DNA of 64,000 nt from assembly GCF_006345805.1 (NCBI RefSeq), contig NC_043014.1, forward strand, positions 9,858,001 to 9,922,000, read 5' to 3'. The stretch comes from Octopus sinensis (Eukaryota). Positions 19,675 to 21,290 of this stretch are shown here, piece after piece. Every line of letters starts with the position of its first letter. Within the stretch, counting starts at the first letter, position 1. The position numbers and the translations under genes were made by a program. The notes under the pieces are model-generated. The model was given only the letters and a program-made list of their open reading frames with translations. It was not told the DNA's origin and made no database searches.

Positions 19675-19712
<38 letters not shown>
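19047..19712. repeat. (TA)n-rich microsatellite block
   Basis: Direct inspection. Confidence 0.95.
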
Positions 19713-19713
<1 letters not shown>

Positions 19714-19861
19714 ATAAAGGGTTAAAACAACAAGTTGCTCAAACCACATATCGAAAATATTAGAAATAGCAGCAGCCAAAATTGGTCAGTATTCCTGTCG
19801 CAGATCGTACTGGTGTAGCGGGTAAGTTTTTTCCCCTAGCATTTCTAGATCTATAGGAAAT

Positions 19862-19919
19862 ATTATATTGACAAGGAAATGAACCTTCGGTTCTAATCCA
19901 GAAACGAGTCGTCTATAAT
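19862..19919 (+). ncRNA. Hammerhead-like motif with variant core, tandem copy 1
   Basis: attata TTGACAA gga aat gaac cttcg gttc taa tcc a GAAA cg agt cg TC tataat. Confidence 0.6.
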
Positions 19920-20417
19920 TAATCCAGAGGCTGGGGTTTTCATTATTTTCTGCCTTTTTTGCCATATACAGCTAACAAATTCTGTTGTTTGTGGAAAATT
20001 TTACTAGTAGAGGAAATACTGACCAATTTTGGCTGCTATTTCTAATATTTTCGGTATGTGGTTTTGAGCAACCTGTTGTTTTTAACCCTTTATTATAATT
20101 ATTATAACCCTTACCAAATATGGTATTTTCCATACCGACAAATCTACTAGGTGAAATTGAATTAATTTTATAAATTAATTATACCACTCTTTATTGAATA
20201 TTGAATACTTTTGCTCCCTTACAAGTTATCTCCGAATTTTTCGTTTCGTTGGTAATGTTTTTGTAGCTCACGTGGTAGATTTTGGAGGGAAATATGAATT
20301 CGCATGTCGGCATAGATGTACGAATGCTAGCAGTTCCGTTAAGCCGTCCGATGTTGCAGATCGTACTGTTGTAGCGGGTAAGTTTTTTCCCCTAGCATTT
20401 CTAGATCTATAGGAAAT

Positions 20418-20475
20418 ATTATATTGACAAGGAAATGAACTTTCGGTTCTAATCCAGAAACGAGTCGTCTATAAT
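20418..20475 (+). ncRNA. Hammerhead-like motif with variant core, tandem copy 2
   Basis: Same fold, 556 nt downstream of copy 1. Confidence 0.6.
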
Positions 20476-21290
20476 TAATCCAGAGGCTGGGGGTTTTCAT
20501 ATTTTCTGCTTTTTTTGCCATATACAGCTTACAAATTCTGTTTGTTTGTGGAGACTTTTACTAGTAGAGAAAATACTGACCAATTTTGCTGCTATTTCTA
20601 ATATTTTCGGTATGTGATTTTGAGCAACTTGTTGTTTTTAACCCTTTATTATAATTATTATAACCCTTACCAAATATGGTCTTTTCCATACCGACAAATC
20701 TACTAGGTGAAATTGATTAATTTTATTAAATTAATTATATTCTACCCTTTATTGAATATATATATATATAGTATCTCAAGTTCCTGAATGTTCAATGTTA
20801 TTATTTAGTGACGTAGAACGCGGTTTAATATTCTGTAGAAATTCGCCGAGATTTTTCCTAGCTCTCAACGTCACCAAGGTGACATGGCGGGTGGTGTGCT
20901 TCTTATTTTCGTTATTACGACATAGAGAAGCCATACAAAATCAGATCCATGAAAGATAAGGTTGCGCTAAGTCGTATGCATTCGGACGCCTCAAGCATTT
21001 GATATATTCACACAATCACCTACATAATTACATGCCCGCTCATACACACACACACACACAAAGACACGCAGTGCGTGCATGAATATGCATGTATATACAT
21101 TGTGTAGGAAGCTCACAAAATATTTTCTGAATAATAATAATACAAAATGGTTTATAGTTTCGCCGGATATCTAAGAAAAATTTATTTCAATCTTTAGGTG
21201 ATGAATGACAACGGATAATGCCTTTGGCAAAATGTTTGGCCCTTAATGCTTCAAACTGATATTGATATGACACAGCTAAGTATAATATAA

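What the first reader, a model, noticed from the sequence alone, without database searches (positions are those of the whole stretch)
19712..20758. 556-nt ribozyme-to-ribozyme unit: candidate circular-RNA (retrozyme) template
A ~1.7-mer tandem (period 556) has a hammerhead-like fold in each unit (GUC sites at 19913 and 20469). It is preceded by an 84-bp inverted copy, and the whole sits inside (TA)n. Cleavage at both sites would release a 556-nt monomer. Permuted tandem copies are what rolling reverse transcription of a circular RNA gives (as established for retrozymes). Both units read TTGACAA rather than CTGACGA, so either the template was already variant or the duplication post-dates the mutation.
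Basis: partly seen in the sequence, partly recalled or inferred. Interest (0 to 1): 0.75.

Follow-up and report, generated by a model that had tools for sequence, protein, structure and literature searches.

The report
Hammerhead-bearing Penelope-type mobile tandem repeat
A 556-base non-coding mobile repeat with a hammerhead-ribozyme motif in each unit sits as a 1.7-copy tandem plus an inverted stub inside a TA microsatellite, the insertion pattern that Penelope-like retrotransposons leave. It belongs to the known kind called animal retrozymes, and its ribozyme is predicted, not shown, to cut out a 556-base RNA.

Summary
Two direct copies lie 556 nt apart at about 95% identity, an inverted 91-nt piece precedes them, and (TA)n flanks both sides.

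The unit belongs to a dispersed family: 89 exact copies of its ribozyme-like motif, 88 reading TTGACAA. That family is a minor branch of a superfamily of thousands of roughly 545-560-nt units that share a 3' module (6,391 hits of one 16-mer). Most relatives carry a canonical CUGANGA core at the homologous place (2,696 hits).

Between families, helix I, helix II and the C3-G8/U3-A8 core pair all change in a compensating way. So the motif is a true hammerhead-type fold that Rfam misses. U3-A8 is a published natural variant reported active in vitro.

Insertions have variable 5' ends, read through unit borders, often carry a head-to-head inverted arm, end at two fixed sites 95 nt apart, and sit in (TA)n. 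This is the published Penelope-like-element signature. Intact Penelope-like ORFs that target (TA)n exist in this genome, but no partner sharing sequence was found.

Self-cleavage and a circular RNA remain untested.

Verdict: a new member of the known non-LTR retrozyme kind.

The parts
19049..19713 (.). (TA)n microsatellite, the insertion target (left flank)
   Evidence: TRF: period 2, 343 copies. In the family, 23 of 24 insertions have (TA)n on at least one side.
19703..19793 (-). Inverted 5'-truncated arm. It is the reverse complement of unit positions 220-311, and its outer end is the short-form 3' terminus (u311), abutting (TA)n.
   Evidence: BLAST 90.5%. The same kind of arm is present in 15 of 24 family insertions, always ending at u312 or before.
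19796..20351 (+). Unit 1 (u1-u556) of the direct arm. Non-coding, 34.7% GC.
   Evidence: The longest stop-free frame is 77 aa.
20352..20759 (+). Unit 2 (u1-u406). It ends at the long-form 3' terminus ...TTTATTGAATAT followed by (AT)n.
   Evidence: 94.9% to unit 1. In the family, all 9 one-armed insertions and one arm of all 15 two-armed ones end at u381-u412.
19856..19925 (+). Hammerhead-type motif, copy 1. Helix I: 19856-58/19923-25 and 19862-67/19914-19. Core: UUGACAA 19868-74. Helix II: 19875-77/19897-99 and 19881-85/19889-93. GAAA: 19901-04. Helix III: 19904-06/19910-12. Predicted cut after C19913.
   Evidence: Sequence; covariation; model hit of 74.2 bits. No Rfam hit.
20412..20481 (+). 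Hammerhead-type motif, copy 2. Predicted cut after C20469. One C-to-U change in helix II leaves a G-U pair.
   Evidence: model hit of 72.3 bits.
19914..20469 (+). The 556-nt RNA monomer that cleavage at both sites would release (predicted).
   Evidence: Follows from the two predicted cut sites. Its fold is -130.1 kcal/mol, z = -2.29 against 100 shuffles. No RNA evidence.
20027..20201 (+). 3' module (u232-u406) conserved between families. It holds both 3' termini (u311 = 20106, u406 = 20201). The 95 nt between them act as the 'tail'. A second copy lies at 20583-20759.
   Evidence: 66-70% identical to family B over u232-406, whereas the rest is not detectably alike. Termini.
20760..20770 (.). 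Short (AT)n remnant of the target on the right flank

Best explanation
This is one insertion of a dispersed, non-coding retroelement family with a 556-nt unit and a hammerhead-type motif in every unit, and it was likely copied into the (TA)n tract by the reverse transcriptase/endonuclease of a Penelope-like element (PLE).

Shown:
- the family and its much larger superfamily;
- the conserved, covarying hammerhead fold with a U3-A8 core pair;
- fixed 3' termini at u311 and u406, variable 5' ends, read-through of unit borders, and head-to-head inverted arms;
- (TA)n targets;
- intact RT + GIY-YIG PLE ORFs in the same genome that also end in (TA)n.

Inferred steps:
1. A transcript spanning two or more units would fold two hammerheads. 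These probably act as a pair through the near-palindromic helix III (ACGAGUCGU). They would cut after C19913 and C20469 to give a 556-nt RNA, which a host ligase may circularise.
2. A PLE protein would nick both strands of a (TA)n tract. It would start reverse transcription inside the RNA at one of two sites 95 nt apart, each just downstream of a CCCTT(T/A)ATT box, with one site used per strand.
3. Synthesis would run 0.3 to 2.6 units round a circular RNA or along a multimeric RNA and stop at a random point. This gives the direct arm (here u1-556 plus u1-406) and the inverted arm (here u311 back to u220).

The two modules conserved between families, the hammerhead and the 3' module, are taken to be the RNA-processing signal and the RT-recognition/initiation signal.
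For: 1. Family. One search gave 96 matches from 40 scored of 1,743 candidates. The 22-nt motif has 89 exact hits against 0 for the control.

2. Architecture, family A, 24 independent insertions (30 loci minus 6 duplicates).
- (TA)n on both sides / one side / neither: 15 / 8 / 1.
- 15 are two-armed, and each pairs an arm ending at u312 or before with an arm ending at u381-407.
- 9 are one-armed, and all end at u406-412.
- 5' ends are scattered from u20 to u517.
- Arms read through u556 into u1, up to 2.6 units (L003).

3. The same rule holds in 30 loci of sister families.
- (TA)n on both / one / neither: 25 / 5 / 0.
- Of 20 two-armed loci, 17 pair termini 427-463 with 536-546. One is 546/546 and 2 are cut by the locus edge.

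4. Units within one insertion are more alike (97.2%, n=11 same arm; 96.8%, n=14 opposite arms) than units of different insertions (94.7%, n=1,053). This fits one event from one template.

5. Hammerhead. At the homologous position the relatives read CUGAUGA, CUGACGA or CUGAAGA ... GAAAC-palindrome-GUH.
- On 46 distinct rows, 87.2% of cells pair against 29-40% when partners are slid.
- 8 of 20 pairs change on both sides, including 5 of 6 in inner helix I.
- The C3-G8 pair is CG in 34 rows and UA in 12, never unpaired.
- 0 of 500 shuffles reach the covariation score. The result is similar on 56 distinct model-aligned rows.

6. Published match.
- PLE structure (5' truncation, partial tandems, adjacent inverted 5'-truncated copy, a 'tail' at one end, microsatellite bias including (TA)n): PMC8557442, passages.
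- A PLE enzyme cleaves and extends both strands, starts RT at two internal sites that define the tail, and prefers AT-rich DNA: PMC11167929, main text read.
- U3-A8 hammerheads in PLEs (PMC4209133, passages) and in nature, with such covarying cores reported active in vitro (PMC3088659, passage).
- Animal retrozymes proposed as PLE dependants: PMC7229834, passages; bioRxiv 10.64898/2026.07.22.740005, abstract, Results part 1, sections 15-16.

7. PLEs here.
- GIY-YIG search: 147 matches from 150 scored of 5,029 candidates.
- Open frames of 780 and 883 aa carry RVT_1 plus a C-terminal GIY-YIG domain.
- 17 of 20 PLE loci have a (TA)n run downstream of the ORF. In 6 of them an identical ...TTTTTTACAA end abuts it.
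Against: - No autonomous partner was identified. None of 22 PLE loci shares DNA with the unit beyond chance, no protein similarity was found, and none of 27 PLE or other hammerhead loci holds this hammerhead type.
- Rfam finds no hammerhead here, even at E up to 10.
- The motif departs from the textbook core: one extra A lies between helix II and G12, and there is no G10.1-C11.1 closing pair as usually drawn.
- Thermodynamics do not favour the fold. The hammerhead-consistent structure is -10.2 against an MFE of -13.1 kcal/mol, with z = -1.12 against shuffles.
- The motif is only modestly better conserved than the rest of the unit: 98.5% vs 96.6%, rank 45 of 498 windows.
- The covariation rests on few family splits (effective sequence number 2.91).
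- Genomic arms read straight through the predicted cut site, and no pile-up of 5' ends lies there. So cleaved linear monomers were not the template.
- A published PLE inserts unprocessed RNA in vitro, and its hammerhead is dispensable there (PMC11167929).
- A sister subfamily with a U4-to-C core (971 hits) still multiplied.
- No RNA data were obtained.
Confidence: 0.72

Rival explanations
1. It is the same PLE-dependent non-autonomous element, but the hammerhead motif plays no part in mobility and no circle exists. New copies would be reverse-transcribed from uncleaved linear transcripts of tandem source loci, and the motif is a passenger inherited from a PLE pseudo-LTR.
For: - Arms read through the predicted cut site without a break.
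- In vitro a PLE uses unprocessed RNA, and hammerhead mutants insert equally well (PMC11167929, main text).
- The subfamily with the non-canonical CCGAUGA core reached 971 exact motif copies and forms the longest arrays.
- Naiad PLEs thrive without canonical hammerheads (PMC8557442, passages).
Against: - The hammerhead fold is kept by compensatory changes across families whose surrounding sequence has diverged beyond detection. That implies selection on the RNA structure.
- 5'-truncating synthesis can only shorten arrays. In family A only 3 same-strand motif pairs at unit spacing occur among 89 hits, yet arms of 1.3-2.6 units keep arising. This suggests a step that regenerates length, such as going round a circle or template switching.
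Confidence: 0.3
2. It is a local tandem or segmental duplication (a minisatellite made by unequal crossover or replication slippage) of a sequence that happens to look like a hammerhead.
For: Only 1.7 units are present at this locus. The preprint 10.64898/2026.07.22.740005 (section 16) invokes unequal crossover for growth of retrozyme arrays.
Against: - The same partial-tandem design, with the same two 3' termini and (TA)n flanks, recurs at 24 unlinked places for this family and 30 for its relatives.
- Inverted arms cannot come from unequal crossover.
Confidence: 0.03
3. It is a DNA transposon, foldback element or MITE, because the locus starts with an inverted copy of an internal segment, and TTAACCC-like words sit at the repeat ends.
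For: Inverted repeats 19716-19793 / 20015-20090. The arm ends read ...TTAACCCTTT..., which recalls piggyBac ends (a recalled resemblance, not tested).
Against: - The inner ends of the two arms differ from insertion to insertion, while the outer ends are fixed and unequal (u311 vs u406). There are no terminal inverted repeats of fixed length.
- No TTAA duplication frames the element. The flanks are (TA)n.
- No transposase ORF is present.
Confidence: 0.02

Closest known systems
Non-LTR retrozymes of animals (Cervera & de la Pena 2020, PMC7229834; Li, Clavereau & Pollet 2026 preprint 10.64898/2026.07.22.740005)
   Same: Short, AT-rich, non-coding units in dimers to multimers. One type I hammerhead per unit, so that cleavage would give unit-length RNA. 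Dispersed copies. Co-existence with PLEs.
   Different: - The unit of 556 nt (relatives 543-558 and 1,670 nt) is above the 170-400 nt first described, but inside the 51-972 bp range of the preprint.
- The ribozyme is the PLE-like minimal kind (long interrupted helix II, tiny palindromic helix III, U3-A8 core) and is invisible to Rfam.
- Here the insertion architecture itself (two arms, two fixed termini 95 nt apart, (TA)n) ties the elements to the PLE mechanism. In the passages I read, the papers argue this from co-occurrence and pLTR homology.
- RNA circles are not shown here.
Hammerheads in pseudo-LTRs of Penelope-like elements (Cervera & de la Pena 2014, PMC4209133) and PLE insertion structure (Craig et al. 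2021, PMC8557442; Frangieh et al. 2024, PMC11167929)
   Same: - Minimal type I hammerhead with a long helix II, an extra unpaired base beside helix II and a small palindromic helix III suited to dimers.
- The U3-A8 variant is described for Schistosoma Cercyon PLEs.
- Partial tandems, an adjacent inverted 5'-truncated copy, a one-sided 'tail', and AT-rich/(TA)n targets.
   Different: - No RT/GIY-YIG ORF lies in the element.
- The tail is 95 nt rather than 30-40 bp.
- The extra base lies 3' of helix II in this family.
- No sequence homology was found to any PLE sampled here.
Plant LTR retrozymes (Cervera et al. 2016, PMC4918200; only the search listing and the start of the abstract seen)
   Same: Non-autonomous, ribozyme-to-ribozyme units thought to move through circular RNA.
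   Different: As summarised in PMC7229834, the plant elements have type III hammerheads inside true LTRs, PBS/PPT and 4-bp duplications, and depend on Gypsy elements. Here the hammerhead is type I, the repeats have variable 5' ends, and the signature is PLE-like.
Newt satellite 2, Schistosoma Sm-alpha and cave-cricket pDo500 hammerhead repeats (recalled; cited within PMC4209133 and PMC7229834)
   Same: Tandem repeats of a few hundred bp with type I hammerheads whose weak helix III favours double-hammerhead cleavage.
   Different: Those are long satellite arrays or SINE-like copies. Here the copies are short dispersed arrays with inverted arms in microsatellites.

Membership tests
Hammerhead ribozyme (type I) | Conserved core: C3 U4 G5 A6 N7 G8 A9 ... 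G12 A13 A14, the A15.1-U16.1 pair, and H17 at the cut site | tested here: met
   UUGACAA ... GAAA C ... GU C17. All invariant purines are present. C3/G8 are replaced together by U3/A8, which covary across families (CG 34 rows, UA 12, none unpaired) and are a published natural variant (PMC3088659, PMC4209133). Deviation: one extra A between helix II and G12.
Hammerhead ribozyme (type I) | Three helices around the core, supported by compensatory changes; helix I open and helices II and III closed | tested here: met
   86-87% of cells pair against 29-43% for slid controls. Inner helix I has 5 of 6 (A1) or 6 of 6 (A2) pairs changed on both sides. Helix II inner stem: GAACC/GGUUC, GUC/GAC, GUC/GGC, GUU/GAC, GCU/GGC. 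Helix III is 3 bp and nearly invariant. Caveat: few independent family splits.
Hammerhead ribozyme (type I) | Match to the curated Rfam hammerhead models | tested here: not met
   No hit at gathering score in the window, none at E up to 10 in 19600-20900, and none at E up to 0.1 in 10 loci of relatives with canonical cores. The same model does find other hammerheads in this genome (7 at or above the cut-off).
Hammerhead ribozyme (type I) | Site-specific self-cleavage | not testable with these tools
   Needs an in vitro transcription and cleavage assay of monomer and dimer constructs.
Non-LTR retrozyme | Non-coding tandem units, each with a type I hammerhead; dispersed in many copies; low GC | tested here: met
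   1.7 units with 2 motifs. Longest open frame 77 aa, GC 34.7%. 24 independent insertions mapped. 89 motif copies.
Non-LTR retrozyme | Expressed as unit-length linear and circular RNA | not testable with these tools
   No run on record as RNA holds it. Contigs of runs only guessed to be RNA were laid and cannot show ends or circles.
PLE-dependent (Penelope-type) insertion | 5' truncation, partial tandems, an adjacent inverted 5'-truncated copy, a one-sided tail, and a microsatellite/AT-rich target | tested here: met
   (counts are given in the For line). The definition is taken from PMC8557442 and PMC11167929.
PLE-dependent (Penelope-type) insertion | Autonomous PLEs (RT + GIY-YIG) present in the same genome | tested here: met
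   Their 3' ends abut (TA)n.
PLE-dependent (Penelope-type) insertion | Sequence shared with the pseudo-LTR or the 5' ORF region of a specific autonomous PLE | tested here: inconclusive
   None was found in the PLE loci held: 20 loci carrying GIY-YIG matches plus L058, L089, L090 and L091. But 5,029 GIY-YIG candidates exist and only these were examined.
Autonomous Penelope-like element | Own ORF with RT and GIY-YIG endonuclease | tested here: not met
   No frame longer than 77 aa. A PLE protein finds nothing in the window.
Plant-type LTR retrozyme | Two full LTRs of fixed length with type III hammerheads bounding an internal region | tested here: not met
   The hammerhead is type I (helix I open). 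Repeat lengths vary with 5' truncation, and arrays reach 2.6 units or carry inverted arms. PBS/PPT were not searched.

The most novel reading that the evidence does not exclude
These arrays are a genomic footprint showing that hammerhead-bearing animal retrozymes are mobilised by Penelope-type enzymes. Synthesis is primed on both strands and starts at two internal RNA sites 95 nt apart, one per strand. The state of the hammerhead core would set how long the copied multimers are: the subfamily with a U4-to-C core makes longer arrays (mean run 2.11 vs 1.32 motifs, p = 6e-4), as expected if uncut multimeric RNA is copied. Families with a canonical or U3-A8 core make short arrays, which would mean the U3-A8 ribozyme is active in vivo.
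Probability: 0.3. Interest if true: 0.6.

Novelty: new member of a known kind. Interest (0 to 1): 0.4.

Why it matters
Animal retrozymes have been linked to Penelope-like elements mainly by co-occurrence and by homology of terminal repeats. How they are copied, and what their ribozymes are for, remain open questions.

This genome offers thousands of insertions with cleanly readable ends: two fixed start sites, one per arm, in (TA)n. It also offers natural core variants (canonical, U3-A8, C4) in otherwise homologous elements. That is a ready-made comparative system for three questions:
- whether hammerhead cleavage shapes the template;
- where the reverse transcriptase starts;
- why Rfam-based scans under-count such ribozymes.

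For annotation, the practical lesson is that this locus is a transposable-element insertion, not a gene or a satellite.

Tried and rejected
- Rfam. No hammerhead or any credible family at the locus or in relatives. The miRNA-like hits are (TA)n/(CA)n artefacts.
- tRNA-derived SINE idea (GGTTCTAATCC resembles a B box; this is recalled). ARAGORN finds no tRNA, and a T6 run lies between the would-be boxes, so it was dropped.
- Thermodynamic support. Weak and not used.
- RNA evidence. No RNA holder is listed. Contigs of four runs only guessed to be RNA were laid; they show fragments of the family and one contig reading across the unit border, which a tandem copy explains equally well, so they are not used as evidence.
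- Cross-species check. A second read-laying run did not complete because the machine was busy. Conservation in other organisms stays open.
- Search for the autonomous partner.
  - blastn of the unit against 20 loci carrying GIY-YIG matches plus extended PLEs, tblastn of PLE proteins against units, and the covariance model over PLE loci all found nothing.
  - L053/L058 and L091 at first looked like a PLE joined to these units. They are separate insertions side by side in one (TA)n tract.
- Test for a pile-up of arm 5' ends at the cut site. Five arms start 5-11 nt downstream of it in family B, but not exactly at it, so this was not pursued.
- Test for recurrent differences between inner and terminal units, which would indicate a heterogeneous tandem master. 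Nothing convincing was found.
- Earlier findings of this scan. None for this genome or sequence.
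Full report
**1. What is in the sequence**

Reading 19300-21200 and the repeat finder confirm two direct copies 556 nt apart: 19796-19986 vs 20352-20542 at 95%, and 20028-20183 vs 20584-20739 at 94%. By BLAST, unit 1 is 19796-20351 and unit 2 is 20352-20759, which covers unit positions u1-u406 at 94.9%. The 150 nt from 20202 to 20351 (u407-556) occur once.

Upstream, 19703-19793 is the reverse complement of u220-311 at 90.5%. To the left lies (TA)n at 19049-19713. To the right is a short (AT)n at 20760-20770.

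The unit is 34.7% GC and has no open frame above 77 aa.

**2. It is a dispersed family**

The unit finds 96 matches in its own 2.72-Gb genome, from 40 scored of 1,743 first-look candidates. The exact 22-nt pattern across the core has 89 hits against 0 for the reversed control. Of these, 88 read TTGACAA, 1 reads CTGACAA and none reads GACGA. Among 32 non-redundant motif copies in the fetched loci, 30 read TTGACAA. The variant core is therefore the family's own and did not arise at this locus.

**3. Insertion architecture**

I mapped 30 fetched loci. Six were second views of the same places or duplicate contigs (L006, L012, L014, L021, L028, L030) and were dropped, leaving 24 insertions.
- (TA)n flanks both sides in 15, one side in 8 and neither in 1.
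- Nine insertions are a single arm, and all end at u406-412 (...CCCTTTATTGAATAT followed by (AT)n).
- Fifteen have two arms placed head to head. In every one, one arm ends at u381-407 and the other at u312 or before; in 13 of these the shorter terminus is u295-312.
- The inner (5') ends are scattered from u20 to u517.
- Arms run through u556 into u1, up to 2.6 units (L003).

The window's locus, minus-strand u220-311 followed by plus-strand u1-556 and plus-strand u1-406, is an ordinary member.

Units inside one insertion are more alike than units of different insertions: 97.2% for the same arm (n=11) and 96.8% for opposite arms (n=14), against 94.7% between insertions (n=1,053). This fits both arms being made in one event from one template. 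It also puts this insertion at a few percent of divergence, so it is not recent.

**4. A much larger superfamily**

A related short element beside a truncated PLE (L058) is 66-70% identical to u232-406 only. A 16-mer from that shared 3' module has 6,391 exact hits in the genome against 1 for the control. The hits lie in arrays of period about 540-560, often as mirror-image arrays.

I fetched 30 such loci from the first hits listed on contig C1, so the sample is not genome-wide. They follow the same rule.
- (TA)n lies on both sides in 25 and on one side in 5.
- There are two termini 95 nt apart, at 451 and 546 in the coordinates of one relative.
- 17 of 20 two-armed loci pair one terminus of each kind. 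One is 546/546 and two are cut by the locus edge.

Outside the hammerhead region and the 3' module, the two families are no more alike than shuffled sequence. One relative has a 1,670-nt period (L092).

**5. The ribozyme motif**

Rfam reports nothing here, either at gathering score over the window or at E up to 10 over 19600-20900. It also reports nothing for ten loci of relatives. The Hammerhead_1 model does find seven other hammerheads at or above its cut-off elsewhere in this genome.

At the position homologous to the window's motif, the relatives read as follows:
- GAG-CUGAUGA-U-AGAAAUGUCG...GACUAAUCU-U-GAAAC-GUAC-GUU/CUC, and variants with CUGACGA or CUGAAGA;
- H17 is U, A or C;
- helix III loops are GUAC, GUUGAC or GUUAAC;
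- one subfamily has CCGAUGA.

Exact counts are 2,696 for G-CUGANGA-N-AGAAAUG (control 14) and 971 for the CCGAUGA form (control 1). The window's family is thus a 2-3% branch in which C3 and G8 became U3 and A8.

I aligned 46 distinct motif sequences. Two unrelated regex hits out of 48 had been dropped. On this alignment, the hammerhead structure pairs 87.2% of cells, against 29-40% when partners are slid by 1-3 columns. Eight of 20 pairs change on both sides, including five of six in inner helix I (AUUAUA/UAUAAU against CUGAG/CUCA or CCGAG/CUCG). The C3-G8 pair is CG in 34 rows and UA in 12, never unpaired. No shuffle out of 500 reaches the covariation score. A model-fitted alignment of 73 hits (56 distinct rows) gives the same picture.

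Caveats:
- The sequences are related, and the changes trace to few family splits (effective number 2.91).
- The A-family rows are one column out of register in helix II in both alignments. Their helix II (GGA/UCC and GAACC/GGUUC) is read directly from the sequence.
- Folding energy gives no support.
- The motif is only slightly better conserved than the rest of the unit.

From the literature:
- Perreault et al. 2011 state that C3 and G8 pair and covary to U3 and A8 in several natural hammerheads, and that such variants had been proven active in vitro (PMC3088659, passage read).
- Cervera & de la Pena 2014 found the U3-A8 form in about 1,300 motifs related to Schistosoma PLEs. They describe PLE hammerheads as having a long helix II, an extra unpaired base beside it and a tiny palindromic helix III that suits dimers, with low activity in vitro (PMC4209133, passages read).

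Here helix III plus its neighbours is ACGAGUCGU. Two copies could form 8 pairs around one G-G mismatch. In the relatives ACGUACGU and ACGUUAACGU are perfect palindromes that cannot close as hairpins. A double hammerhead between neighbouring units is therefore the likely active form (inference).

**6. Comparison with Penelope-like elements**

Craig et al. 2021 (PMC8557442, passages read) describe PLE insertions as 5'-truncated and organised in partial tandems. They often carry an inverted 5'-truncated copy directly upstream and a 30-40-bp tail at one end, and they are biased to microsatellites, (TA)n for Naiads.

Frangieh et al. 2024 (PMC11167929, abstract and main text read) showed several properties of a purified PLE protein:
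- it cleaves and extends both DNA strands;
- it prefers AT-rich DNA;
- it starts reverse transcription at two internal sites of the RNA, whose spacing is the tail;
- it probably copies multi-unit transcripts;
- its hammerhead needs the protein to cut and is dispensable for insertion in vitro.

Every one of these structural marks is present here, with a 95-nt tail.

The genome is rich in PLEs.
- The GIY-YIG search gave 147 matches from 150 scored of 5,029 candidates.
- 17 of 20 PLE loci have a (TA)n run downstream of the ORF. In six of them the same ...TTTTTTACAA end directly abuts it.
- In L091 a PLE and two arrays of the superfamily lie as separate insertions in one (TA)n tract.

I could not find a PLE that shares sequence with the unit. 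The driver is unnamed, and only a tiny part of the PLE population was sampled.

**7. Mechanism**

Shown: the family, the fold kept by compensatory change, the fixed termini, the variable 5' ends, the two arms, the target, and the presence of suitable enzymes.

Inferred:
- Transcripts of two or more units are cut by paired hammerheads into 556-nt RNA (19914-20469 at this locus), which may be circularised.
- A PLE enzyme nicks both strands of (TA)n and starts cDNA at u406 on one strand and u311 on the other. Each start lies just after a CCCTT(T/A)ATT box.
- Synthesis continues for a variable distance.

Because arms read through the cut site without a break, and 5' ends do not pile up there, the template was not a cleaved linear monomer. 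It was a circle or an uncut multimer.

I lean slightly to a step that regenerates length, meaning a circle or template switching. 5'-truncating synthesis can only shorten arrays. Family A has almost no long source arrays: only 3 same-strand pairs at unit spacing among 89 motif hits. Yet arms of 1.3-2.6 units are common. This is an argument, not a test.

**8. A lead seen on the way**

On contig C1, among the first 100 hits listed for each pattern, the motifs with the U4-to-C core stand in longer same-strand runs than those with canonical cores. The mean is 2.11 for 37 runs against 1.32 for 76 runs, with runs of up to 6 against up to 4 (Mann-Whitney p = 6e-4). If the C4 core is inactive (recalled from mutational studies, not checked here), uncut multimers being copied would explain this, and the short arrays of the U3-A8 family would then speak for its activity. 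Differences in family age, loss of exact matches in older copies, and local unequal crossover could give the same result, so it stays a lead.

**9. Verdict**

The reading as a retrozyme-type, ribozyme-to-ribozyme unit is right in kind. The UUGACAA worry dissolves, because it is a compensated core pair. The inverted stub and the position in (TA)n are explained by PLE-type insertion. Permutation as evidence for a circle is not established.

The thing is a new member of the known class of animal non-LTR retrozymes, or non-autonomous PLE derivatives. It is notable for very legible insertion ends and for natural core variants. I did not test that note. It is a parallel, not support.

Noticed in passing
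G000 contig C1, first 100 listed hits: The subfamily with a CCGAUGA (U4-to-C) hammerhead core forms longer same-strand arrays than the canonical-core subfamilies: mean 2.11 against 1.32 motifs per run, and up to 6 units. This may be because uncut multimeric RNA is copied. Family age and unequal crossover are not excluded.
   Followed up: partly
L092 (G000:C1:13987300-13990800), motifs at 762-854 and 2432-2524: A related family has a 1,670-nt period. Its core is the canonical CUGACGA, and its helix III region is the perfect palindrome ACGUUAACGU. It shares the 3' module at 74-79% identity.
   Followed up: partly
L036/L037 (G000:C16:25146363-25146839, minus strand): Two Rfam-detectable type I hammerheads (GUAC-CUGAAGAG...GAAAC-AUGU-GUC-GUAC type, 34.3 bits) lie 431 nt apart. 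This looks like a second, unrelated retrozyme-like family. The same motif occurs in L031, L034 and L035.
   Followed up: no
L091 (G000:C1:29141000-29150400): One (TA)n tract holds three separate insertions: a 4.3-unit array of the superfamily, a two-armed PLE with an RT/GIY-YIG frame (65% aa identity to the L089 PLE), and a 2.7-unit array in the other orientation. It is a microsatellite insertion hot spot.
   Followed up: partly
L041 and L046 (loci carrying GIY-YIG matches): Other minimal hammerhead-like motifs occur inside loci that carry GIY-YIG matches. They have palindromic helix III loops (CUCGAG, GAUC), and in L046 an ATG directly follows the core, as described for the Anolis PLE.
   Followed up: no
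L089 2285-2560 and 6279-6530: The 5' region of an apparently full-length ~4-kb PLE starts with ATCATCATC...TTTAACGTCCGCTTTCCATGC, and this recurs right after its 3' (TA)n. It may be a partial tandem (tail) or another repeat.
   Followed up: no
window 16487-16571 (+): A weak hit of the home-made hammerhead model (19.2 bits, E 0.16). It has a CUGAUGA word but GAAG in place of GAAA, so it is probably chance.
   Followed up: no
window 19868-19925 and relatives: The word GAAAUG in helix II is kept in all families. In the Anolis PLE the ORF start codon lies at the start of helix II (PMC11167929), so the ATG here may be a relic of a lost PLE ORF. It is followed by a stop after 5 codons in this family.
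   Followed up: partly
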